Shown here piece after piece: positions 53,252 to 64,000 of a stretch of DNA of 64,000 nt (its first letter is position 1; each line of letters begins with the position of its first letter). Under the pieces are notes generated by a model, which was given only the letters and a program-made list of their open reading frames with translations, had not been told where the DNA came from and made no database searches. The DNA is taken from positions 1 through 64,000 of the forward strand of contig JAIXOQ010000033.1 in the NCBI GenBank assembly GCA_027486675.1, read 5' to 3'. The translations under genes and the position numbers were made by a program. This stretch comes from Pseudomonadota bacterium. GTDB taxonomy: Bacteria > Bdellovibrionota > UBA1018 > CAIMNF01.

Positions 53252-53620
53252 CTACTTTTTTGCAGGAAGAGCTGCAGGCGCTTTGCACTGTCCACCGACG
53301 CTCACTAGCGGCGACACACAGCCTGACTTGATCGGGAGCGTAGTCACAGGGCGCGCTATCCCTTTCGATGGGCCTGCCGCGCCGCCATTCTGAGAGCTGG
53401 TGCTCCGAAGGACCTCGCTCTCTCCGCCACAAGCTTTCGATGCATCGGCCCAACAATTCTTTTCGGTGTCAGTCCGGCCATTGCCTTCAGTCCCATTTTT
53501 GCAGGTCCAAGAACAGGACCAACCGGTCTCATACTTGTACGCTCTGCTTTGCTCCGGAAAAAAAACAGCAGTAATCACGGTAATAAAGAGAAAGGAGTAA
53601 AACTTGTTTATCTTCTTCAT
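53252..53620 (-). CDS. small secreted cysteine-rich protein (operon gene 3)
   Basis: Signal peptide; SCSWTCKNG...NCWADASKACGGE pattern shared with the two upstream genes; ATGA overlap. Confidence 0.55.
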   Translation of the reverse strand: MKKINKFYSFLFITVITAVFFPEQSRAYKYETGWSCSWTCKNGTEGNGRTDTEKNCWADASKACGGESEVLRSTSSQNGGAAGPSKGIARPVTTLPIKSGCVSPLVSVGGQCKAPAALPAKK

Positions 53621-53910
53621 GACTTCTTCCCCTGGATGTTCTGGAATACACTCTTGGGAAGTACATTCTTGGGAATCGCTTTGCGCTCATTGCAGCTGCT
53701 TCCAGACTTCTCTTCGCAGTCGACAGTATCGCAACCACCGGTCGAATTAAAACTACCTGTAGCGCCACTGGAACAGACCCAAGTACATCGACACCCTCCC
53801 GAGTCCATCGCCATACTGCCCCAAGTCCGTTTTGCGAAAGCATCATTCATGAAGAGGGCCGTGAACATGAACGTGATCACCGTAACTTTTGAACCTTTCA
53901 AATTTTTCAT
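53617..53910 (-). CDS. small secreted cysteine-rich protein (operon gene 2)
   Basis: Signal peptide; CRCTWVCSSG...GGCDTVDCEEKSGSSC. Confidence 0.55.
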   Translation of the reverse strand: MKNLKGSKVTVITFMFTALFMNDAFAKRTWGSMAMDSGGCRCTWVCSSGATGSFNSTGGCDTVDCEEKSGSSCNERKAIPKNVLPKSVFQNIQGKKS

Positions 53911-54179
53911 TTCGAGGCCCCATTCTGCAGCACCGTAATCGCAGGCTTCGTCAAAGTAGTTCCGCCCTTAACTGCAATTTTTTCACCACAGGCATTAATT
54001 GCCGTAGTCCTGCAATTCAGTGCATTCGCCCACTCCCCAAGCTGCTGGCTTCCTGAATTGCCGTTGTCACACGTGTATGTGCAATACTTAGAATTATTCA
54101 TGTCCACTTGTTTAAGTGCAAAAGCGGGACTCACTGAAAACAACATCGCAAAAACCGAAACCATAATCATCAACTTCAT
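53907..54179 (-). CDS. small secreted cysteine-rich protein (operon gene 1)
   Basis: Signal peptide MKLMIMVSVFAMLFSVSPAFA; YCTYTCDNG...NCRTTAINACGEK. Confidence 0.55.
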   Translation of the reverse strand: MKLMIMVSVFAMLFSVSPAFALKQVDMNNSKYCTYTCDNGNSGSQQLGEWANALNCRTTAINACGEKIAVKGGTTLTKPAITVLQNGASK

Positions 54180-54344
54180 TCTGTTCCCCTTTTTCTTAGT
54201 TCTTGACCAAACTACTGGTGACTACCAAGAACACGAAAACTCCCGTCTTCCGGTCGAGCTAGTGTTGATTTTAGATTACCCTCCGCCCTAAACAAAAATC
54301 AATGCGTCATCTATGACATGCGCCATGAGGCGCTTGAGAGGTTC

Positions 54345-54385
54345 GTAAATTTACAAATAGAATCTGAGTTTCCATTTGTAAATTT
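54345..54385. repeat. perfect 13-bp inverted repeat TAAATTTACAAAT-N15-ATTTGTAAATTTA
   Basis: Read directly from the intergenic region between the Cys-rich operon and cassette copy 1. Confidence 0.5.
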
Positions 54386-54454
54386 ATAGGGAATCTCTGA
54401 TTCCGGCTGAAGACTGGCCCGCTCCTGGGTTTACAACCCTGCTTTCTGCACTGC

Positions 54455-54468
54455 CGTTTCCGGAAACG
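54455..54468 (+). promoter_or_regulatory. 14-bp perfect palindrome CGTTTCCGGAAACG upstream of cassette copy 1
   Basis: Identical palindrome recurs upstream of copy 3 (57681-57694) within a conserved ~90-bp block. Confidence 0.35.
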
Positions 54469-54515
54469 AAAACTTCCTAAGTGTTTCATGAGCCTAGCCT
54501 AGGCAACTTTCGCCA

Positions 54516-54543
54516 TTGACGAGCCCCCCCCCCAATCTAAATT
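54516..54543 (+). promoter_or_regulatory. putative promoter TTGACG-N16-TAAATT with a 10-C homopolymer in the spacer
   Basis: Conserved in all three cassette copies; C10 tract at 54524-54533. Confidence 0.4.
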
Positions 54544-54606
54544 GGAAAAGTTGCCAGGGCGGGTGGTCTGTCGGGGCGGGATAACTTTTAGGGAGATAAA
54601 ACCGAG

Positions 54607-54954
54607 ATGAAAAAGATTTTTGGACTCATGGCGTTTGGGATGGTGTTGGTTGCGGGGACTGCGGAGGCACGCAATTACGCCTGCTTTAACTGTAAAGTGG
54701 GTCAACCCTGCAAAGTGGACCTATTGGTCACTGTTACGAACTCAAATGGCACAGTTACAACCAGTACAGAGTCTATCAATGGAATCGGGGTCAGGGACGG
54801 AAGCGGCACAGCTTGTGGCGCGCGCGTAGCGACCGCCGCGCTTCCGCTTGGGAGCCGACTTGTGCCACAAACAAACTGCACCGGAGGCGCGGTAGCGGTA
54901 GCCGGTATGTGCGCTAAGGCATCAATCGCAGTCTCGGCAACACCAACAAAATAA
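54607..54954 (+). CDS. secreted cysteine-rich protein, cassette copy 1 (conserved signal peptide, variable mature domain)
   Basis: MKKIFGLMAFGMVLVAGTAEA|RNYACFNCKVGQPCK...; RBS TAGGGAGAT. Confidence 0.6.
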   Translation: MKKIFGLMAFGMVLVAGTAEARNYACFNCKVGQPCKVDLLVTVTNSNGTVTTSTESINGIGVRDGSGTACGARVATAALPLGSRLVPQTNCTGGAVAVAGMCAKASIAVSATPTK

Positions 54955-54979
54955 CCGCCCTCAATCATTCAATTGATAT

Positions 54980-55022
54980 CGGGCCCTGGGACCAGACCTT
55001 GTCTGCCCGGGGCTTCTTTTTG
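54980..55022 (+). terminator. strong rho-independent terminator (conserved with the copy 2 terminator)
   Basis: gggccctgggaccagacc/ggtctgcccggggc bulged stem + TTCTTTTT. Confidence 0.65.
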
Positions 55023-55115
55023 CGTGTGCTCGCCACACGATTTGCCTATGGTAAACTTCCAAAAATGCAGGCCTTGCTTCAGTGGAACTATCGCTCTTTT
55101 CCGCTGGGAGAAACC

Positions 55116-55382
55116 ATGAACATTCAGATGGTGAATTTCGGAGAGTTTTTAATGTCGCGCCCAGCTGGACATGTGGCAGCGCAAATCATCGTTGAGAATT
55201 TCAGACCTGCTTCCCACGACTAAGTCATTGAGCTCGACTTTCTTAACGTGAAAGCAATCGGTCCATCTTGGTTGCACGAAGTGGTCAAGGGACTGCGCGG
55301 CAAGTACCCAAACAAAATCCAAGTTTTAGATCAAGGCAATGCCTCCGTGATTGAGTCGCTCAAGTTTGTCGACCTTCGGTAG
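55116..55382 (+). pseudogene. STAS-like (DUF4325) gene inactivated by an in-frame TAA (GAA>TAA at codon 36)
   Basis: About 90% nt identity to the intact gene at 57341-57607. Upstream, 55065-55115 keeps only the first and last codons of the GHKL ATPase gene (internal deletion), producing the chimeric ORF 54999-55223. Confidence 0.65.
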
Positions 55383-55519
55383 TTACGGCCTGAGTAAGAA
55401 CCAGATCATTTGGGTTGCACGTCCAGCGCATCAAGCGCAACTTCTGTTGCACCCAAAAAGTAACAATTCTTCATCTCTAAATCTTGGTCTCACCCTGGGG
55501 TTTTTTGTGCCGAAATCAG

Positions 55520-55915
55520 TCAATCCCCGTACACATCAAACTTCAATGTAGATCGTGCGTGAAGCAGCTTCTTATCCAAAGTCCACAGCGGTACTTTGTA
55601 TTCAGCCGCAAGCGTTCCAATCAGACAGTCTAAGGTCCCCAAAGTGATGCCGTTTTTCCTGGCCCGGAAATAATTCCACGCTGCCTGCCCCCAATGACGA
55701 TCTGTGACTTCCAGAAATTCAAAACCCAGCATGTACTCCCAGAGACTATGAAAAATTTCAGGCGTCCGGGCACCCTGGCAAACTTCTACGTGTATCGGAC
55801 GCACAATGCAGATCGCTGCGTTGTTCTTGATCATACGCTTAAGTCTCATGCACTCCGGATTCTTCGGAAGTGATCCTGCAATCCAAACCGAACTATCGAC
55901 GAGCACGGGTTGCAT
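55520..55915 (-). CDS. vapC: type II toxin VapC (PIN domain)
   Basis: VLVDSSVWI N-terminal PIN motif; conserved acidic residues. Confidence 0.7.
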   Translation of the reverse strand: MQPVLVDSSVWIAGSLPKNPECMRLKRMIKNNAAICIVRPIHVEVCQGARTPEIFHSLWEYMLGFEFLEVTDRHWGQAAWNYFRARKNGITLGTLDCLIGTLAAEYKVPLWTLDKKLLHARSTLKFDVYGD

Positions 55916-56108
55916 TGTTTGACCCTTTTTTCGTCACGGCACTTGAATCAAAGAAGTCCGTCCCAAGCATCTCAAACATACCCTGCCTTCTGCTTTGAGC
56001 GATCAGCGCATCAAGCGCATTGTTCAAGGTCTCTTTGATTGAATTCGTCCCGCCTAGTTTCCGGGCCAAATTTAACTTCTCTTCATCAAGCTCAACTGAG
56101 GTCTTCAT
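55893..56108 (-). CDS. vapB: type II antitoxin VapB (ribbon-helix-helix/Rv0623-like)
   Basis: 71 aa; MKTSVELDEEKLNLARKLGG...; overlaps the vapC start. Confidence 0.6.
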   Translation of the reverse strand: MKTSVELDEEKLNLARKLGGTNSIKETLNNALDALIAQSRRQGMFEMLGTDFFDSSAVTKKGSNNATRARR

Positions 56109-56226
56109 ATATCAAATATCTCCGTATCAGATATATTGTATCACAGCAGCATGGATCGCGATTCAGCGTGAACTGGGAATTAGTTCTTTAATAAAAACAA
56201 ACACTTACGGCGCGCAATTTTCACCA

Positions 56227-56254
56227 TTGACGAACCCCCCCCCCAATCTAAATT
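56227..56254 (+). promoter_or_regulatory. putative promoter TTGACG-N16-TAAATT with C10 tract in the spacer (copy 2)
   Basis: C10 at 56235-56244. Confidence 0.4.
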
Positions 56255-56319
56255 GGAAAAGTTGCCAGGGCGGGCGGTCTGCCGGGGCGCGCTCTTAACT
56301 TTATGGAGATTTAACCGAG

Positions 56320-56649
56320 ATGATGAAGATTTTTGGGCTCATGGCGTTTGGGATGTTGGTGATGGCAGGGAATGCGGAGGCAGACGTTAAATGTGATCCT
56401 TATCAAGGTAGAGGTTTCAAGTGTAGCGGCACCCTTGCCTGCGGGAAATCATTCTTAGTGATAGAGCTACAGGGAGGTGGAGGCGGCAGTTGGCACTGCA
56501 GCGCCACTCGCGTCGGTCAAAGCCCAGACATTGTGACAGGTGGTTCACCCATTTCTTCACTCCCTCAATCAACAGTGCAGCAGCTTCCTGCCGATCTTAA
56601 GGCTAAGGTGCAAGCAGCTCAGCAAAAAGCCGCAGCACCAAAAAAGTAA
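56320..56649 (+). CDS. secreted cysteine-rich protein, cassette copy 2
   Basis: MMKIFGLMAFGMLVMAGNAEA|DVKCDPYQGRGFKCSGTLACGK...; K/A-rich C-terminal tail. Confidence 0.6.
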   Translation: MMKIFGLMAFGMLVMAGNAEADVKCDPYQGRGFKCSGTLACGKSFLVIELQGGGGGSWHCSATRVGQSPDIVTGGSPISSLPQSTVQQLPADLKAKVQAAQQKAAAPKK

Positions 56650-56675
56650 CCGCTCTTAATCGTTCGATTCATTTC

Positions 56676-56717
56676 CGGCCCCGGGACCAGACCTGGTCTG
56701 CCCGGGGCTTCTTTTTG
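56676..56717 (+). terminator. strong rho-independent terminator
   Basis: gccccgggaccagacc/ggtctgcccggggc (14 bp with 1-nt bulge) + TTCTTTTT. Confidence 0.7.
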
Positions 56718-56759
56718 CCAGTGCGACGCCACACTGAGTGTCTATGATAAACTTCAAAA

Positions 56760-57344
56760 ATGCAGGCCTTGCTTGAATGGCACTTTTCCACAAAACCTCA
56801 AACAGACAACGCCGAGGTTTCTGGAACTAGAGATGTTTTTGAAGCTCGGTCTCAAAAAGTATTTTCTGCTCTTCTAAAACATGGTTTTACCGAATCTGAT
56901 GCAAGCCTGGTCTATTCAATCATTGGAGAACTCGGCAATAACTCCTTTGACCACAATCTCGGTTTTTGGCGCGATCAGCCCGGCTGTTACTTCAGTTTTG
57001 AGTTCGATGCTTCGGGCGTAACCCTTGGACTGGCAGACCGCGGACGTGGGATCTTTAACTCGCTCAAGAGAGTCCTTCCAGAACTCCAGAGCGACCAAGA
57101 GGCAATCGAAATTGCTTTTCAAAGAGTCATCTCAGGTCGCGCCCCTGAGCAGCGTGGTAATGGACTTAAATTTGTGCGGGCGATCATCAATGGCAATCCA
57201 AAACGAGGGCTTGTAGCTCGTTCTGGCACAGGTCTACTCGCCTGTGGTGGCCATGCAAGTTGGATCGCTACGACATCGAACTCACTTTTTTCGGAACCCA
57301 CCGTAGGCGGCACAATCGCTCTTATTCGCTGGGAGAAACCATGA
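56760..57344 (+). CDS. GHKL-superfamily ATPase (HATPase_c; anti-sigma-factor/partner-switching kinase-like)
   Basis: N-box ELGNNSFDH, G1 box DRGRGI, G2 box GNGLKF; 194 aa with no sensor or transmitter domain. Confidence 0.6.
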   Translation: MQALLEWHFSTKPQTDNAEVSGTRDVFEARSQKVFSALLKHGFTESDASLVYSIIGELGNNSFDHNLGFWRDQPGCYFSFEFDASGVTLGLADRGRGIFNSLKRVLPELQSDQEAIEIAFQRVISGRAPEQRGNGLKFVRAIINGNPKRGLVARSGTGLLACGGHASWIATTSNSLFSEPTVGGTIALIRWEKP

Positions 57345-57607
57345 AAATACAGATGGTGAAATTTGGAGAGTTTTTGATGTCGCGCCCAGCGGGACATGAA
57401 GCGGCGCAAATCATCGTTGAAAATTTCAGACCCGCGTCCCACGACGAAGTGATTGAGCTCGACTTTCTGAACGTGAAAGCAATCGGCCCATCCTGGTTGC
57501 ACGAAGTGGTCAAAGGACTGCGTGGCAGTTACCCAAACCAGATCCAAGTTTTAGATCAAGGCAATGCCTCCGTGATTGAGTCACTCAAGTTTGTCGATCT
57601 TCGGTAG
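57341..57607 (+). CDS. STAS-like domain protein (DUF4325-like), translationally coupled to the upstream ATPase
   Basis: ATGA start/stop overlap; GGGAGA RBS; MKIQMVKFGEFLMSRPAGHEAAQIIVENF...IELDFLNVKAIGPSWLHEVV. Confidence 0.55.
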   Translation: MKIQMVKFGEFLMSRPAGHEAAQIIVENFRPASHDEVIELDFLNVKAIGPSWLHEVVKGLRGSYPNQIQVLDQGNASVIESLKFVDLR

Positions 57608-57680
57608 CTGCGGCCCAAGTAAACATCAGATCATTTTGGTTTCACGGCCGGCCGAGCTCGATTGAGCTCCCCAGCACTGC

Positions 57681-57694
57681 CGTTTCCGGAAACG
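57681..57694 (+). promoter_or_regulatory. 14-bp palindrome CGTTTCCGGAAACG upstream of cassette copy 3
   Basis: Second exact occurrence. Confidence 0.35.
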
Positions 57695-57741
57695 AAAATT
57701 TCCTAGGCGTTTCATGACCTTAGCTTAGGCAACTTTTGCCA

Positions 57742-57765
57742 ATGACGAGCCCCCCCATCTAAAGT
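57742..57765 (+). promoter_or_regulatory. degenerate cassette promoter (ATGACG ... TAAAGT) with C7 tract and shortened spacer
   Basis: C7 at 57750-57756; spacer is 12 nt versus 16 nt in copies 1 and 2. Confidence 0.3.
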
Positions 57766-57830
57766 GGAAAAATTGCCGAGGCGGGCGGTCTGCTTCGGCG
57801 CGGGATAATATGTAGGGAGATCATACAGAA

Positions 57831-58082
57831 ATGATGAAGATTTTTGGGCTCATGGCGTTAGGGATGGTGGTGTTGGCAGGGGCTGCGGAGGCGAAGCGAA
57901 TTTGCAGACAAGGATCTCCAGCAACTGGATGTTCGATAGAGTGCACATCCCAAAGTTCCAACGATTGTACTATTGCGTGCACTGGATCTCAGTGCCGTGT
58001 TATCAGATCGGGTGGCCCCGATTATTATGGGGAGTGCTACGGCAAAGCTGTTCAAAAGAACAACACTGCTGCTTCCAAATAA
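57831..58082 (+). CDS. secreted cysteine-rich protein, cassette copy 3 (8 Cys)
   Basis: MMKIFGLMALGMVVLAGAAEA|KRICRQGSPATGCSIECTSQSSNDCTIACTGSQC... Confidence 0.55.
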   Translation: MMKIFGLMALGMVVLAGAAEAKRICRQGSPATGCSIECTSQSSNDCTIACTGSQCRVIRSGGPDYYGECYGKAVQKNNTAASK

Positions 58083-58207
58083 ACATTAGATTATCAAATA
58101 CTACCCCTTTTGTGTGCTGCGTCCGCAGTCATCCTGAAAGGGGGCCCTCTCTCCAGTTACCGATACCCGAAACAAATTTTTCCTAACCAAGACTCAGCCC
58201 AAGAAAC

Positions 58208-58444
58208 TCACTTCACGCACTTTCCACTGGAGAGCTTCAGTCCTGCATCGCATTTACCCGAGGCGCAGGCCTGGCCGAGTGCGCACTCTGTCTTTGAGGA
58301 CGACGTGCCTACAGTAACCGGAACAGGCCTACAGTTGCCGCGATCCGGTACATAACCAGGAGGACACTTCCGGTCCGTGGTGGCCCCGAAGGAACTGGAA
58401 CAACAAACTAACCCCAAAAAAACCATGAAACCAAAAGTTCTCAT
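58208..58444 (-). CDS. small secreted cysteine-rich protein
   Basis: Signal peptide MRTFGFMVFLGLVCCSSSFG; mature region with 6 Cys. Confidence 0.5.
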   Translation of the reverse strand: MRTFGFMVFLGLVCCSSSFGATTDRKCPPGYVPDRGNCRPVPVTVGTSSSKTECALGQACASGKCDAGLKLSSGKCVK

Positions 58445-58473
58445 TGTTGCCTCCTAGATCCCTAAAACTTCAG

Positions 58474-58812
58474 TTATCTACACTGACCAGCACCTAACTT
58501 TTTCCCTGGGAGACACACACTGCCAGGCAGTGCAATCTTCCCGCGCGCCTTACAGTTAAAGTAGAAACGGCTCTGCTTACCTACGAAAGCGGTTGGCGAA
58601 CAAGCCATTGCGCCAGTCAAGTCTGCTACGTCTTCATTTCTGCTATTACAGCAGGAAAGTGCGCGAGTATTGTGTTCCGACGTAAAAAGGCACAAAACAG
58701 GCCCGCTTGTCGCATTCGGAGTCGTCATAAACTGACGTGACGCATTGTCCGACGGTATACAAGTTTGAGCACCTGCCGAAATGGATAAAAGAGCGCTAAG
58801 TAGAATGATCAT
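58474..58812 (-). CDS. small secreted cysteine-rich protein
   Basis: Signal peptide MIILLSALLSISAGAQT; 8 Cys including CC. Confidence 0.5.
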   Translation of the reverse strand: MIILLSALLSISAGAQTCIPSDNASRQFMTTPNATSGPVLCLFTSEHNTRALSCCNSRNEDVADLTGAMACSPTAFVGKQSRFYFNCKARGKIALPGSVCLPGKKLGAGQCR

Positions 58813-58898: not shown

Positions 58899-60533
58899 TC
58901 AGGGAGAGGCAGGCATTATCCCCTGCCCGAAAATCACCCCACGCTGAGGACCTCGAAGCGGAAGGTCTTCCCACGAAGTGCTCGATACCAAACACTCGCC
59001 CATCAGTTTTGCGCCTGCGAGCTGAGGATCGGTGTGCTTTGGGATGATCTTCTCTTCCGTCACCTCAAACTTTGAACCCCGAAGCTTGAGGCACGACAAA
59101 CCCTTAAAACCGCGATCTAGGCAAGTCAGCATGCGTCCAAAGTCATAGGCCTGGGAACACTGCAAATCCCGTCCCAGTCGCATCTGTGAAAAAATACGTT
59201 CATCGCTATAGTTAGGGCGCTCCGCTTCACTCAAAACACTTCTGTAGTCATTTCCATGGATCAAGGCAGAACAACCCGGAAGATGTTTCGAGCTTTTCGC
59301 GCACAGATAGTCGACATCAAATAGATACTTTTTCAGCGCGCCAAGATAATGATGGATCGCCTCCACATTTTTCCGTCGCCCCCACAGATCGGAACTATGG
59401 TGCGTACTTAAGAAAGCCCCCGTGTAGTCAGCAAGAAACTGCACACGAACAATCAAATCCCGAACCCGCGAAACTTCAGCTGCGTAAAATGCGAGTGTAC
59501 GGCACGCACTTTTGATCGACTGGCGATCTGGACTTGACACTAACTCATCCTCGTCATTTTCGTAATCGAGGAGAGTATTGTATTTGACGTACTTCGCCCT
59601 GAGCGGTGGGATGACTTTACTATTTTTGATTTCTGTCTCTGCACGTTTGAGAAACGCCTGAAAGACATTAGAAAACATCTGATCCCCTGAAAAAGAAAGG
59701 GCATCAAAGGTCAAAAGTTGGGATGCATCTTCGGGTGTCGCCATAGAACTCTTGGGTCCCGACGATTCCGCCTCAGCAATAAGCACAGGGAGGTTCGTCC
59801 TCACTTGCAATTCAAGATTCGAGTCTTCGCTTGAAACTCGTTTCTTTCGATTCAGGGAATAACTCAATTTTAAGATCTTGTCAGCCTCCTCCCGAGAGAG
59901 AACTTTCCCCAGTAGTTCCCCCGTAGGATTCAACAATTTATCCAGCTCAGCAATCGCATCGACCTGCGTACCGCGTGTCTCATCCTTGCTTTGCTTTTTT
60001 CGGATCAAGAGTAGATCCAGGACGTAGCCCTCCTGGACAACTGAGAGATAGCCAAAGCCGCATTTTTGCCGAAATGAGGCGACACTTGATTTTAATTGGT
60101 CAAGGTCACTCGGGATCATTTTGTACTCTGCTTCGGAATGAACATCCCGAAATAGCTCTAATCGGATATGGCGAACTTCACTTTCATTTGACCCCAAAAT
60201 GGATCGACTTACGCCCACCTTAAGGGCATCACCGACAGCCATCCCTGAAGAGGTAGCAAGCTCAAGCTCGCTAAAAGAAGAAATTTTGGAGTTGGAATAA
60301 CGAACACTAAACTCACCCAAATTTCTTAAACTGGGTATTTCGAAGCCTACCGCATTCTGCTCAACGCAAGTGCCCGCCTTGAAGTCACCGGTATAGACAT
60401 CAGCAGCTTGCCCATTAAAGACGCTTTCCTGCATGAGACTTACGTCGAGCACATCGACGGAGGACGCGCCAAAGGCATGATTTCCTTGGAATATCGCAAC
60501 CATCAGACCACACACCCCGAAGAGCTTAAACAT
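58899..60533 (-). CDS. large hypothetical secreted protein (544 aa)
   Basis: Start taken at MFKLFGVCGLMVAIFQGNHAFGA signal peptide; no family recognised. Confidence 0.5.
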   Translation of the reverse strand: MFKLFGVCGLMVAIFQGNHAFGASSVDVLDVSLMQESVFNGQAADVYTGDFKAGTCVEQNAVGFEIPSLRNLGEFSVRYSNSKISSFSELELATSSGMAVGDALKVGVSRSILGSNESEVRHIRLELFRDVHSEAEYKMIPSDLDQLKSSVASFRQKCGFGYLSVVQEGYVLDLLLIRKKQSKDETRGTQVDAIAELDKLLNPTGELLGKVLSREEADKILKLSYSLNRKKRVSSEDSNLELQVRTNLPVLIAEAESSGPKSSMATPEDASQLLTFDALSFSGDQMFSNVFQAFLKRAETEIKNSKVIPPLRAKYVKYNTLLDYENDEDELVSSPDRQSIKSACRTLAFYAAEVSRVRDLIVRVQFLADYTGAFLSTHHSSDLWGRRKNVEAIHHYLGALKKYLFDVDYLCAKSSKHLPGCSALIHGNDYRSVLSEAERPNYSDERIFSQMRLGRDLQCSQAYDFGRMLTCLDRGFKGLSCLKLRGSKFEVTEEKIIPKHTDPQLAGAKLMGECLVSSTSWEDLPLRGPQRGVIFGQGIMPASP

Positions 60534-60580
60534 GGGACCGAATACTATAGAATTTCGATCTAAAGTACAATCCATTGAAA

Positions 60581-61234
60581 TCAAAGACTCACCCACGGGT
60601 TTGGGATGCGCGCAAAGACCGGCACAATCGCAATTTCTGTAAATCCTTGCTTGAGAAACTGTGGGGTAGAAGTCTTGGGCTGCGTCATCGCCACCTCGAC
60701 TCTGACCTGATGGACATTTGCGAGCCTGTACGACCGTGCGCGCATCAAATCCGCGTAAAGCCCCTCTTTCCTCCGTTCAGGCACCACAAAAGCACCCCGG
60801 AGGTACGCTTGATCCGCGACTTGAAAAGAACTCACCCCACCCACGATATCGCCGCCTTCTTCCACAATCAGCGTTTCGTGCCTTGAGTCATTGAGTAAAA
60901 AATACGTCGACTCTATAAGCTGATTCTTAAAATTAGGGTGGATCTGCCAAGCGCGGATTTTACTTTCAACAAAGCGAGGCACGTCTTTCACTTCAAGGAT
61001 CCGAAACCGATTCATATCGGGGCAGATCAGTTTCGCTGGATCCAGCGACCGCATCAGCGCGCGGATCTGAATCACCTCCAGCACTTTGCATTCATCTACA
61101 AGATATCGGTGTAAATCCGGATGCGAACAGGGCCAGAGATGAATCGTGAAATTTGCACTTCTGCGATCATACGCATCGATCACCGCACGAATCTCATGAA
61201 ACCGAGACGGGGGCAGACGCATTCTTGTGATCAA
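60581..61234 (-). CDS. GNAT family N-acetyltransferase-like protein
   Basis: C-terminal IVGGVSSF...AYLRGAFVVPERRKEGLYADLM acetyl-CoA-binding-like motif. Confidence 0.5.
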   Translation of the reverse strand: MITRMRLPPSRFHEIRAVIDAYDRRSANFTIHLWPCSHPDLHRYLVDECKVLEVIQIRALMRSLDPAKLICPDMNRFRILEVKDVPRFVESKIRAWQIHPNFKNQLIESTYFLLNDSRHETLIVEEGGDIVGGVSSFQVADQAYLRGAFVVPERRKEGLYADLMRARSYRLANVHQVRVEVAMTQPKTSTPQFLKQGFTEIAIVPVFARIPNPWVSL

Positions 61235-61758: not shown

Positions 61759-64000
61759 CTACCTGAGAGCAGCCCCAGTTTCTTTTGCCCAGGCCTCGAC
61801 CATCATTTTGGACGCCCGCTCGACCTCTGCTTCCTCAAGACTGCGGGTCGCATCCGAAAAACTCACTCGAATTGCGACACTCACTTTTCCTTCCGGTAAC
61901 GGAGATCCCTTATAAATATCAAAGACTTTCGCGCCCTTGGCAATCGGCTTACCCGCACGAAGCCCCACCTGCACCAAACGATCCGAGGCAGTCGCGCTAT
62001 CGACGACGAGTGCAAAGTCCCGCTCCATCCCAGGAAACTTAGGCCAATCCTTAAATTGGGCCTCAGCGGCCATCATGAGGGGCAACACAGCATCTAGGTC
62101 GAGCTCACACGCATAGAGCGGCTGGCGCAGACCCAAGCCCTTCTCCAGTCGGGGGTGCAGGCGTCCTGCATAACCCACTCGGCTCTTCCCTACCCACACT
62201 TCGAGTGCTTGGCCTGGATGAAAGGTCGCAGGGATCGGGTCACGAGTTGCAGCAATCAGACGTACCCCTGAGGTACGGGTGCGTGCAAAGAGGCCTTCTA
62301 ACACAGCTTTTAGGTCAAAGAAGTCAACAACTCGGAGGTCCTGACGTAGGGCGTCTGAATGATCCCTGCCCGTCAATACGAACGCGGCCTTCAAAGTTTC
62401 TTTCACCCCGGTGTCGTGACTCCCTACTGCGGCAATGGGTTGGTCAGTCGAATGGAAGGTTGGCCTCACTTCAAAGAGGCGAATCGAAATGGGCTCTGCA
62501 CCAAAATGGTGTCGCTCATTTTCAAGGACCGCCTTCAACAGCCCTGGCAACAAGGATGACACTAAACATTCATGGTCCTCGGTCAGAGGGTTTTGAACCC
62601 GCACCTGGGACGGCAAACCACAACGCTCTAAGAATGTGGAACTTTGAAACGAAAGACTGACAGCTTCAAAAAATCCCAGCTCAACCAATGCATCTTTGGT
62701 TGCATCGATGCGCCTAAGCCTTTGAGCCACAGCCGACTCACGAACAGGCCTGGCTGCAAGGTCTGCTGCAAAAGGAAGCGTCAAAGGAATTTCGTCATAG
62801 CCAATGCAACGAGCTACTTCCTCGATAAAATCTTCTGCAATGTTTAAATCACGACGGAACGTCGGAGGCGTGATAGAAAATTTTCCGCCCGAACGATCGA
62901 CCGAACACTGAAGACCCATCAGAATCTTCGAGATCTCTTCTGGCGATAGACTCATCCCGAGTTGATCCCCGATATAGCTTTCGGAAAACTGCACAACATG
63001 CGAACGCACCTGACTTCGCGCCGGGCTCTGCTTGAACGAAGCACCCACCAGGACCCCCCCAGCCACACGACTCACTAAGTCGGCAAGACGCTTCATCGCC
63101 TTTTCTGGCCCAGTGGAATCAATCCCTTTTTCAAACCGGAGGGATGCCTCGCTTCGGCGGGCGTGCAAGGACGCCGCACGACGCACAAGGACGGGACTAA
63201 ATTCGGCACACTCTAAAAAGATATTCTTCGTCGTTGCACGGACTTCGCTATTGCCGCCGCCCATGACCCCTGCAAGTCCAACGGTCTTCTTGCCATCGCG
63301 GATCACAAGCTCAAATCCCTGAAGCTTCACCGTGCCACCATCCAGAAGTGCGAGCTCCTCTCCTGGAGTCGCAACATCCACCGCGATAGTATCGCCCTCC
63401 AAAAGATCCGCATCGTAGATGTGCACTGGAAATCCAAGATCAAGCATCACGAAGTTACTGACATCGACCAGATTGTTGATGGCTCTTTGACCCACGCTTT
63501 CTAAGCGAGTCTTTAACCAAGCCGGCGATTCCTTTTGAATAACACCTTTCACTAGCGCACCCGCGAACTGAGGCGCATTTTCTCCGGCTTTCAGTTCAAT
63601 TTGCACGGGACTTCCAGCCCAAGCAATTTCGGGAATCTTCTGGGTTTTGAGTGGGACTCCAATGGCTGCTGCCACTTCGCGTGCAATGCCGTAGTGACTG
63701 AGGCAATCCCCTCGGTTGGCTGTGAGCTTAATTTCTAAGATCACATCGTCACGCTCTAAGACATCGGCAATTTTCCAGCCCACGGGTGTGCCTTCAGGTA
63801 AAATAAAAATGCCTTCGGCTTTATCTTTTAGGCCAAGCTCTTCTTCCGAACAAAGCATTCCGAAAGACTCAACCCCGCGAATTTTTGATTTCTCAATCTG
63901 AAGCCCATTCGGGAGTTTTGCGCCGATATTGGCGAGTACTACAACATCCCCGCGCTTCATGTTTTGCGCGCCACAGACAATTTGTAAATAAGGAGCCGCA
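61759..64000 (-). CDS. pheT: phenylalanine--tRNA ligase beta subunit (5'-partial; continues beyond window end)
   Basis: The frame stays open to position 64000; residues before the first in-window Met (…LQIVCGAQN) match the PheT tRNA-binding domain. B3/B4, B5 and C-terminal anticodon-binding domains are present. Confidence 0.9.
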   Translation of the reverse strand, partial: AAPYLQIVCGAQNMKRGDVVVLANIGAKLPNGLQIEKSKIRGVESFGMLCSEEELGLKDKAEGIFILPEGTPVGWKIADVLERDDVILEIKLTANRGDCLSHYGIAREVAAAIGVPLKTQKIPEIAWAGSPVQIELKAGENAPQFAGALVKGVIQKESPAWLKTRLESVGQRAINNLVDVSNFVMLDLGFPVHIYDADLLEGDTIAVDVATPGEELALLDGGTVKLQGFELVIRDGKKTVGLAGVMGGGNSEVRATTKNIFLECAEFSPVLVRRAASLHARRSEASLRFEKGIDSTGPEKAMKRLADLVSRVAGGVLVGASFKQSPARSQVRSHVVQFSESYIGDQLGMSLSPEEISKILMGLQCSVDRSGGKFSITPPTFRRDLNIAEDFIEEVARCIGYDEIPLTLPFAADLAARPVRESAVAQRLRRIDATKDALVELGFFEAVSLSFQSSTFLERCGLPSQVRVQNPLTEDHECLVSSLLPGLLKAVLENERHHFGAEPISIRLFEVRPTFHSTDQPIAAVGSHDTGVKETLKAAFVLTGRDHSDALRQDLRVVDFFDLKAVLEGLFARTRTSGVRLIAATRDPIPATFHPGQALEVWVGKSRVGYAGRLHPRLEKGLGLRQPLYACELDLDAVLPLMMAAEAQFKDWPKFPGMERDFALVVDSATASDRLVQVGLRAGKPIAKGAKVFDIYKGSPLPEGKVSVAIRVSFSDATRSLEEAEVERASKMMVEAWAKETGAALR

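What the first reader, a model, noticed from the sequence alone, without database searches (positions are those of the whole stretch)
54524..54533. Poly-C homopolymers (C10, C10, C7) inside the promoter spacer of each cassette copy: candidate phase-variation switch
In each copy the homopolymeric C tract sits between a TTGACG -35-like hexamer and a TAAATT/TAAAGT -10-like hexamer: 54524-54533, 56235-56244 and 57750-57756. Tract lengths differ between copies (10, 10, 7), giving spacers of 16, 16 and 12 nt. G/C homopolymers of 9 or more are rare in a 50% GC genome and are hypermutable by slipped-strand mispairing. Their placement in the spacer would turn each promoter ON or OFF with tract length, as in Neisseria, Haemophilus and Campylobacter contingency loci. 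Copy 3's shortened tract would be an OFF state.
Basis: partly seen in the sequence, partly recalled or inferred. Interest (0 to 1): 0.7.

Follow-up and report, generated by a model that had tools for sequence, protein, structure and literature searches.

The report
Poly-C tract inside paralogous promoter spacers
Three neighbouring genes for small secreted cysteine-rich proteins in an uncultured Bdellovibrio-like bacterium each carry a run of C's (10, 10 and 7) between the two promoter boxes, the layout of known slippage-driven on/off switches in Neisseria and Bordetella, but actual switching could not be tested here.

Summary
The tracts are real: C10 at 54524-54533 and at 56235-56244, C7 at 57750-57756. 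An independent Logan assembly also reads C10 at copy 1. A C10 is expected about 0.03-0.05 times per 64 kb.

Each tract lies in a sigma-70-like promoter that heads a monocistronic cassette. The cassette has a conserved core promoter, 5'UTR and Sec signal peptide, followed by an unrelated Cys-rich mature peptide.

Copies 1 and 2 read TTGACG-16-TAAATT. Copy 3 reads ATGACG, not TTGACG, at that position (spacer 12). It has a better -35, TTGCCA, six bases upstream, which gives an 18-nt spacer. All three observed lengths therefore fall in the 16-18 window, and "copy 3 is OFF" is not supported. This compensating shift is the best evidence that the tract sits in a working spacer.

Hypermutability and switching remain untested. 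The cassette island is missing from the two closest relatives, and the DNA of three more family members could not be fetched.

I found no support for an RNA-structure role (no Rfam match, no excess folding stability, no covariation).

Verdict: a plausible new member of the known fetA/opc/fim class of promoter-spacer homopolymer switches, in an unusual lineage and so far shown only in silico.

The parts
54516..54521 (+). Copy 1: -35-like hexamer TTGACG
   Evidence: 5/6 match to TTGACA, 16 nt upstream of TAAATT.
54524..54533 (+). Copy 1: C10 homopolymer inside the promoter spacer
   Evidence: Also read as C10 in the independent Logan contig L099.
54538..54543 (+). Copy 1: -10-like hexamer TAAATT
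54544..54606 (+). Copy 1: conserved discriminator and 5'UTR, with a G-rich hairpin and Shine-Dalgarno GGGAG at 54591-54595. The transcription start is predicted, not mapped, at about 54550.
   Evidence: 33 of 34 nt after the tract are identical between copies 1 and 2. The UTR is also conserved in another genome, seen as the translated N-terminal extension of P0243.
54607..54954 (+). Copy 1 gene: 115 aa, Sec signal peptide MKKIFGLMAFGMVLVAGTAEA plus a mature part with 6 Cys
   Evidence: No Pfam, NCBIfam or PADLOC family.
54997..55022 (+). Copy 1: intrinsic-terminator-like hairpin and T run
   Evidence: Conserved with copy 2 (D3).
56227..56232 (+). Copy 2: -35-like hexamer TTGACG
56235..56244 (+). 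Copy 2: C10 homopolymer inside the promoter spacer (16 nt)
56249..56254 (+). Copy 2: -10-like hexamer TAAATT
56320..56649 (+). Copy 2 gene: 109 aa (108 aa from the second ATG), same leader, unrelated mature part with 4 Cys
56692..56716 (+). Copy 2: terminator-like hairpin and T run
57736..57741 (+). Copy 3: shifted -35-like hexamer TTGCCA (5/6), 18 nt upstream of TAAAGT
57742..57747 (+). Copy 3: ATGACG, the degenerate homologue of the TTGACG of copies 1 and 2. Its spacer would be 12 nt.
57750..57756 (+). Copy 3: C7 homopolymer
57760..57765 (+). Copy 3: -10-like hexamer TAAAGT
57831..58082 (+). Copy 3 gene: 83 aa, same leader, unrelated mature part with 8 Cys
54502..54510 (.). GGCAACTTT: left arm of a 9-bp inverted repeat that brackets the core promoter. 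The right arm is AAAGTTGCC at 54547-54555. Imperfect equivalents occur in copies 2 and 3.
   Evidence: I5, I6. Function unknown; possibly an operator.
54547..54555 (.). AAAGTTGCC: right arm of that inverted repeat
54455..54468 (.). Perfect 14-bp palindrome CGTTTCCGGAAACG upstream of copy 1. It recurs at 57681-57694 upstream of copy 3 and is absent from copy 2.
   Evidence: (D4, I7): 0.21 matches expected by chance at 2 or fewer mismatches.

Best explanation
Each cassette is a self-contained transcription unit: sigma-70-type promoter, a 5'UTR of about 60 nt with a 5' hairpin and a GGAG ribosome-binding site, a conserved Sec signal peptide, an unrelated Cys-rich mature peptide, and a terminator.

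The C tract makes up most of the spacer between the -35 and -10 hexamers, so its length sets the spacer length. In copies 1 and 2 the spacer is n+6, so TTGACG and TAAATT are 16-18 nt apart only for C10-C12. In copy 3 the spacer is n+11, so TTGCCA and TAAAGT are 16-18 nt apart only for C5-C7.

Gain or loss of a C by slipped-strand mispairing during replication would therefore move each promoter, independently, among optimal (17), sub-optimal (16 or 18) and non-functional spacings. That would give heritable and reversible differences between cells in which secreted peptides are made.

In the sequenced state all three promoters are at the edge of the permitted window (16, 16, 18). One slip in one direction gives the 17-nt optimum, and one slip in the other direction takes the promoter out of range.

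Shown: the tracts, their position relative to consensus hexamers, the conservation pattern, and the compensating -35 shift.

Inferred: the transcription start, use by sigma-70, hypermutability in this organism, and any adaptive value.
For: - Tracts confirmed, also in a second assembly. A C10 is expected 0.03-0.05 times per 64 kb.
- TTGACG-16-TAAATT (copies 1 and 2) and TTGCCA-18-TAAAGT (copy 3) are the only promoter-like sites shared by the cassettes. No alternative -35/-10 pair lies between the tract and the start codon (reading).
- In-silico variation of tract length shows that each observed length falls in the narrow 16-18 window (3 of 13 lengths tried). Copy 3 reaches it through a different, better hexamer moved 6 nt upstream. 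A 5/6 hexamer at one of three allowed positions is expected about 1.4% of the time (my calculation).
- The core promoter and the first roughly 30 transcribed bases are the best conserved part of the unit: 97% between copies 1 and 2, against 90% for the neighbouring DUF4325 gene and 86% for the signal-peptide codons. Mature regions are at random-level identity.
- Copy 2 lost everything upstream of about -17 from the -35 to a VapBC insertion, yet kept the core.
- The architecture has experimentally established precedents. A poly-C between -10 and -35 of gonococcal fetA (C10-C14 among strains) changes expression (PMC5320596). The C-stretches in the promoters of the paralogous Bordetella fim2/fim3/fimX/fimN genes differ in length between paralogues and strains and alter transcript levels (PMC1891110).
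Against: - No population or strain data. Two assemblies agree on C10 at copy 1, though they may rest on the same reads.
- Copies 1 and 2 have identical lengths despite 10-17% divergence in their flanks. All three alleles are in the permitted window, which is what purifying selection on a fixed spacer would also produce.
- No other long G/C tract was seen in the window or in about 50 kb from two close relatives, so there is no sign of a genome-wide contingency-locus lifestyle.
- The mismatch-repair status of this organism is unknown.
- The promoter is assigned by consensus only. TAAATT and TAAAGT each match 4 of 6 positions.
- Only three paralogues, related by descent, so the conservation arguments have little statistical power.
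Confidence: 0.45

Rival explanations
1. Static spacer. The C run really is the spacer of a sigma-70 promoter, but it arose once and was copied with the cassette. Purifying selection holds it at a working length. Slippage variants are rare deleterious mutations, not a switch.
For: - Copies 1 and 2 both have C10 although their flanks differ by 10-17%.
- All three alleles sit in the 16-18 window.
- Copy 3 looks like a tract that shrank and was then repaired by point mutations that created a new -35, which is how a fixed promoter would be rescued.
- No other long G/C tract in the window or in relatives.
- The organism is a free-living or predatory environmental lineage in which SSR phase variation has not been reported (one search found no relevant paper).
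Against: - A pure C10 slips at elevated rates in every bacterium examined (general knowledge; see PMC1891110 and PMC5320596), so some heterogeneity in expression is close to unavoidable.
- A tract under selection only for length would be expected to pick up interruptions over 10-17% divergence. All 27 tract positions in the three copies are still C.
- The cargo is a family with a conserved leader and hypervariable secreted domains, lying in an accessory island. That is the kind of gene usually placed under contingency control.
Confidence: 0.33
2. The tract is not a spacer element. In this view it is transcribed from an upstream promoter (for example TTGAGA-18-TAGAAT at 54334-54363 for copy 1). 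It would then pair with the G-rich segment 25 nt downstream (GGGCGGGYGG) as a regulatory RNA hairpin, or form part of a protein-binding site bracketed by the inverted repeat GGCAACTTT/AAAGTTGCC.
For: - The best sigma-70 match in the region (10/12) lies about 190 nt upstream of copy 1.
- RNAalifold pairs the C tract with GGGCGGG in all three copies.
- A 9-bp perfect inverted repeat brackets the core promoter (I5/I6).
- Palindromes lie upstream of copies 1 and 3.
Against: - The upstream promoter-like site exists only at copy 1. Copy 2 has no homologous upstream sequence at all.
- Folding energies of the tract-containing region are no better than shuffled controls (z = -0.36, +1.32, -0.30).
- No compensatory pair changes.
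- No Rfam match even at E <= 1.
- An inverted repeat separated by 36 nt is too far apart for one dimer and too close for an invertible segment.
Confidence: 0.12
3. Assembly or sequencing artefact: the homopolymer lengths are mis-called.
For: The source is probably a metagenome-assembled contig. Homopolymers are error-prone on some platforms.
Against: An independent Logan assembly gives the identical C10 and flanks at copy 1. The Logan contig breaks at the locus are fully explained by the 40-nt stretch shared by copies 1 and 2 at k=31. Three homologous tracts appear in three different contexts.
Confidence: 0.03

Closest known systems
Neisseria gonorrhoeae/meningitidis fetA (frpB) promoter, and the analogous opc and porA promoters
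   Same: A poly-C (or poly-G) tract of about 10-14 nt lies between the -35 and -10 hexamers of a sigma-70 promoter. Its length sets the spacing and so the level of transcription. The gene product is exported (PMC5320596).
   Different: - In Neisseria, length variation among strains and within cultures, and its effect on expression, are shown experimentally. Here neither is.
- The Neisseria genes are single-copy outer-membrane protein genes of a host-restricted pathogen.
- Here the tract heads a tandem family of small Cys-rich secreted peptides in an environmental Bdellovibrionota lineage.
Bordetella fim2/fim3/fimX/fimN promoter 'C-stretch'
   Same: Paralogous genes for secreted proteins each carry a homologous C tract in the promoter. 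Lengths differ between paralogues (for example C12, C13 and C7 in B. pertussis). Short alleles such as C7 still modulate expression (PMC1891110).
   Different: In Bordetella the tract separates a BvgA activator site ('fim box') from the -10, not a canonical -35. No such activator site is identified here, and copy 2 lacks all upstream sequence. The proteins are unrelated.
Mycoplasma hyorhinis vlp family (my knowledge; cited as refs 20-21 in PMC11868660)
   Same: A clustered multigene family with a highly conserved promoter, 5'UTR and signal peptide and divergent mature regions. Each gene is switched independently by a homopolymer (poly-A) in the promoter spacer.
   Different: The vlp products are lipoproteins with tandem-repeat mature regions. 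Here the signal peptide ends in AEA with no lipobox cysteine, and the mature regions contain no tandem repeats. The tract is poly-C rather than poly-A.

Membership tests
SSR-mediated transcriptional phase-variable promoters (fetA/opc/porA/fim type) | An uninterrupted mononucleotide tract long enough to slip (about 8-9 nt or more for G/C) | tested here: met
   C10, C10. Copy 3's C7 is borderline, although the C7/C8 alleles of Bordetella fimX are polymorphic.
SSR-mediated transcriptional phase-variable promoters (fetA/opc/porA/fim type) | The tract lies within the promoter, between the -35 (or an activator site) and the -10, so that its length changes promoter geometry | tested here: inconclusive
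   Met by consensus prediction and by the compensating -35 shift in copy 3. No transcription start is mapped.
SSR-mediated transcriptional phase-variable promoters (fetA/opc/porA/fim type) | Tract length is polymorphic within populations or between closely related strains | not testable with these tools
   - No reads were available.
- The only second assembly agrees (C10).
- Close relatives lack the island.
- The loci of three further family members could not be fetched.
- Paralogues differ (10/10/7), but that is not allelic variation.
SSR-mediated transcriptional phase-variable promoters (fetA/opc/porA/fim type) | Expression changes with tract length, reversibly and at high frequency | not testable with these tools
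   Needs reporter fusions or single-colony analysis.
Mycoplasma vlp-type variable surface protein family | Conserved promoter, 5'UTR and signal-peptide block joined to divergent mature regions, in a gene cluster | tested here: met
Mycoplasma vlp-type variable surface protein family | Lipoprotein signal peptide (lipobox with Cys at +1) | tested here: not met
   The leader ends ...AG(T/N/A)AEA and is followed by R/D/K. There is no lipobox.
Mycoplasma vlp-type variable surface protein family | Tandem-repeat mature region giving size variation | tested here: not met
   TRF finds no repeats in the three coding regions.
Invertible-promoter switches (invertons) | Inverted repeats flanking a promoter segment of about 100 bp or more, with a nearby recombinase | tested here: not met
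   The inverted repeat around the promoter encloses only 36 nt. No recombinase gene was found in the island.
Known cis-regulatory RNA (riboswitch or leader) | Match to a curated covariance model, or a stable structure supported by covariation | tested here: not met
   No Rfam hit at gathering score or at E <= 1. Z-scores about 0. No compensatory changes.

The most novel reading that the evidence does not exclude
A free-living or predatory Bdellovibrionota lineage uses slippage-prone poly-C promoter spacers to switch individual members of a lineage-specific family on and off at random. The family consists of secreted, disulfide-rich peptides with a conserved leader and hypervariable mature domains, built like conotoxins, and lies in a strain-specific island. 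This would be bet-hedging over an extracellular peptide repertoire (effectors against prey or competitors, or decoys) outside any animal-host context.
Probability: 0.2. Interest if true: 0.7.

Novelty: new member of a known kind. Interest (0 to 1): 0.45.

Why it matters
Homopolymer-driven phase variation is documented almost entirely in host-adapted pathogens, where it serves immune evasion. My literature search found no report of it for Bdellovibrio-like bacteria. If these tracts do switch, it would show that an environmental, probably predatory, lineage uses contingency loci. It would also point to the small Cys-rich secreted peptides as targets of fluctuating selection from prey, competitors or phage. 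The test is cheap: tract-length counts in existing reads.

Tried and rejected
- **UTR core in genome contigs.** An exact-pattern scan with ATCTAAANTGGAAAANTTGCC gave 10 hits in unrelated phyla, about the chance expectation. The same pattern in viral contigs gave nothing. Distant blastn against plasmids and phages gave nothing.
- **Neighbouring ATPase as an anchor.** I used the HATPase_c_2-like/DUF4325 pair to reach related cassettes. It has 3487 homologues. I examined 80 metagenome loci and six contigs of the 62-65% relatives. None has the cassette, and a G/C run of 8 or more occurs only once in 557 kb. The module is widespread and unrelated to the tract.
- **Word-indexed protein search with the three small proteins.** Only the query itself was found.
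- **Logan contig L011.** It starts exactly after the C tract, which at first looked like an assembly break caused by heterogeneity. The 40-nt stretch shared by copies 1 and 2 at k=31 explains it.
- **ENA contigs of P0004.** They all end 144 nt after the DUF4325 gene, the same distance as the tract in the window. Their ends carry no C tract.
- **Other promoter types.** I checked sigma-54, sigma-28 and ECF-type promoter readings of the conserved core by eye. The spacings do not fit.
- **G-quadruplex in the UTR.** The motif is present only in copy 1.
- **AlphaFold model of the copy 3 protein.** pLDDT was 51.6, too low to use, so I ran no fold search.
- **Family databases.** Pfam, NCBIfam and PADLOC gave nothing for the small proteins.

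Full report
**1. Observation**

In the whole 64-kb window, C runs otherwise stop at 5-7 (C5 x25, C6 x1, one further C7 inside pheT at 63054). G runs reach 6 at most.

Markov models of order 1-3, fitted to the window without the cassettes, expect 0.03-0.05 C10 per 64 kb and about 2.5-3.5 C7 windows. One C10 is therefore unusual. The second is its duplicate. The C7 is notable only because it aligns with the C10s.

A Logan assembly of run SRR16126844 (L099) reads the same C10 and flanks at copy 1. Logan contigs break at this locus, but that comes from the 40-nt stretch shared by copies 1 and 2 at k=31, not from heterogeneity.

**2. What the tracts sit in**

Aligning the three copies shows a conserved 5' module, followed by mature coding sequence with no more than random identity. 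The module runs from about 17 nt upstream of the -35-like hexamer, through the tract and the -10-like hexamer. It continues through a 5'UTR of about 60 nt with a GGAG ribosome-binding site and a 21-residue Sec signal peptide (MKKIFGLMAFGM..AG.AEA).

The products are 115, 109 and 83 aa, with 6, 4 and 8 cysteines in the mature part. They match no Pfam, NCBIfam or PADLOC family. Copies 1 and 2 end in terminator-like hairpins.

After copy 2 comes a HATPase_c_2-like gene (56760-57344) and a DUF4325 STAS-like gene (57341-57607). After copy 1 the same pair survives only as a deleted remnant carrying an in-frame stop. A VapBC pair (55520-56108, minus strand) replaces everything upstream of copy 2's core promoter.

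The best conserved stretch of the whole unit is the core promoter plus the first roughly 30 transcribed bases. It is 97% identical between copies 1 and 2, against 90% for the DUF4325 gene and 86% for the signal-peptide codons.

**3. Organism and context**

PheT and the other housekeeping genes place the window in an uncultured Bdellovibrionota lineage. The best named hits, at about 50-53% identity, are Bdellovibrionales and Oligoflexia MAGs.

Two closer relatives have PheT at 85% and 79% identity, and for L100 the ATP-grasp protein is 92% identical. Their gene order is the same on both sides, but they lack the entire 53.2-58.9 kb island. In its place they carry an FG-GAP protein gene. The island holds five other small Cys-rich secreted ORFs, the three cassettes, VapBC and the ATPase/STAS pair. 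The cassettes are therefore accessory, lineage-specific genes, and no orthologous tract is available for comparison.

A full HMMER scan of 1.84 billion representative proteins with the leader profile found three further family members: P0242, P0243 and P0244. They have the same leader and unrelated Cys-containing mature parts. P0243's mis-called N-terminus is a translation of a homologous 5'UTR, so the 5' module is conserved in other genomes.

**4. Is the tract in a promoter spacer?**

The consensus scan finds TTGACG-16-TAAATT in copies 1 and 2. However, TTGCCA, a 5/6 match to the consensus, lies six bases upstream and gives an 18-nt spacer to TAAAGT.

Varying the tract length in silico shows when a promoter meeting the scan criteria exists with a 16-18 nt spacer. 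That happens only for C10-C12 in copies 1 and 2, and only for C5-C7 in copy 3. The observed lengths (10, 10, 7) all fall inside their windows.

A 5/6 hexamer appearing by chance at one of the three permitted positions is about a 1.4% event (my calculation). I therefore read the moved -35 as compensation for the shorter tract. This is the strongest internal evidence that the spacer geometry is under selection. It also means that copy 3 is not an OFF allele.

No alternative -35/-10 pair lies between the tract and the start codon. The one better promoter match (TTGAGA-18-TAGAAT, 54334-54363) exists only upstream of copy 1.

**5. Alternatives examined**

- Rfam gives no hit at the locus, either at gathering score or at E <= 1.
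- RNA folding of the tract-containing region is no more stable than shuffled controls (z = -0.36, +1.32, -0.30). Only copy 3's UTR hairpin stands out (z = -2.2).
- RNAalifold can pair the C tract with the downstream GGGCGGG, but no pair shows a compensatory change.
- A 9-bp inverted repeat (GGCAACTTT/AAAGTTGCC) brackets the core promoter. A perfect 14-bp palindrome lies upstream of copies 1 and 3 only. These could be operator sites. They do not replace the promoter reading.

**6. Mechanism and how far it is shown**

The layout matches experimentally established transcriptional phase-variation switches. One is the poly-C between -10 and -35 of gonococcal fetA, which is C10-C14 among strains and changes expression (PMC5320596). 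Another is the C-stretches of the paralogous Bordetella fim promoters (PMC1891110).

A pure C10 is expected to slip at elevated rates, so some length heterogeneity, and with it expression heterogeneity, is likely. Whether this is a selected switch or a tolerated spacer remains open.

Against a switch:
- Copies 1 and 2 have the same length although their flanks differ by 10-17%.
- All three alleles are in the permitted window.
- No other long G/C tract turned up in the window or in the relatives' loci.

For a switch:
- The tracts are uninterrupted in all three copies.
- The cargo is a hypervariable family of secreted proteins in an accessory island.

I put the switch reading at about 0.45, the static spacer at about 0.33, a non-spacer role at about 0.12, and an artefact at about 0.03.

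**7. Novelty and verdict**

This is a new candidate member of a well-known class, in a lineage and a gene family where that class has not been described. It is of moderate interest and is testable from existing reads.

Noticed in passing
window 53252-58812, compared with L100 12400-16900 and L102 12400-15300: The whole island of about 5.7 kb between the ATP-grasp (GSH-S-like) gene and the 565-aa ORF is absent from two syntenic relatives (ATP-grasp protein 92% identical in L100). They carry an FG-GAP protein gene there instead. The 565-aa ORF (58899-60596) also has no counterpart in them.
   Followed up: partly
window 53252-53620, 53617-53910, 53907-54179 (minus strand); 58208-58444, 58474-58812 (minus strand): Five more small secreted Cys-rich ORFs flank the cassettes. 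The first three overlap by 4 nt like an operon and share a C-x3-C ... C-x7-C spacing, so they look like paralogues. No database family matches them.
   Followed up: partly
proteins P0242, P0243, P0244 (not in the window): Three further members of the leader family exist in other samples (JGI/ENA contig of 3.1 kb; Logan contigs of 20.7 and 24.4 kb). P0243's first 21 residues are a translated 5'UTR homologous to the window's, so that gene start is mis-called. Their upstream DNA, which would show whether the C tract is conserved or variable, could not be fetched.
   Followed up: partly
window 56760-57607; remnant 55060-55383: The HATPase_c_2-like plus DUF4325 (STAS-like) gene pair is a widespread two-gene module with 3487 homologues, some fused to an N-terminal winged-helix domain. 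In relatives it lies next to a tRNA gene, not next to cassettes. The copy after cassette 1 has lost most of the ATPase, and its STAS gene has an in-frame TAA at 55223.
   Followed up: partly
L093-L097 (ENA assemblies GROS21-1): Contigs from five separate assemblies all end exactly 144 nt after the DUF4325 gene. This points to a repeat or a strain-variable junction at that spot. No C tract is present at the ends.
   Followed up: no
window 55520-56108 (minus strand): A VapB/VapC (PIN) toxin-antitoxin pair is inserted between cassette unit 1 and the core promoter of cassette 2. It replaces the upstream region that copies 1 and 3 share.
   Followed up: partly
window 54346-54386: A 20-nt inverted repeat, 90% complementary with a 1-nt centre, lies in the divergent intergenic region upstream of copy 1. 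It overlaps the best sigma-70-like match of the region (TTGAGA-18-TAGAAT, 54334-54363).
   Followed up: no
window 54455-54468 and 57681-57694: A perfect 14-bp palindrome, CGTTTCCGGAAACG, lies about 55 nt upstream of the C tract in copies 1 and 3 only. It may be a regulator site. Because of the different tract lengths, its distance to the -10 differs by 4 nt between the two copies.
   Followed up: partly
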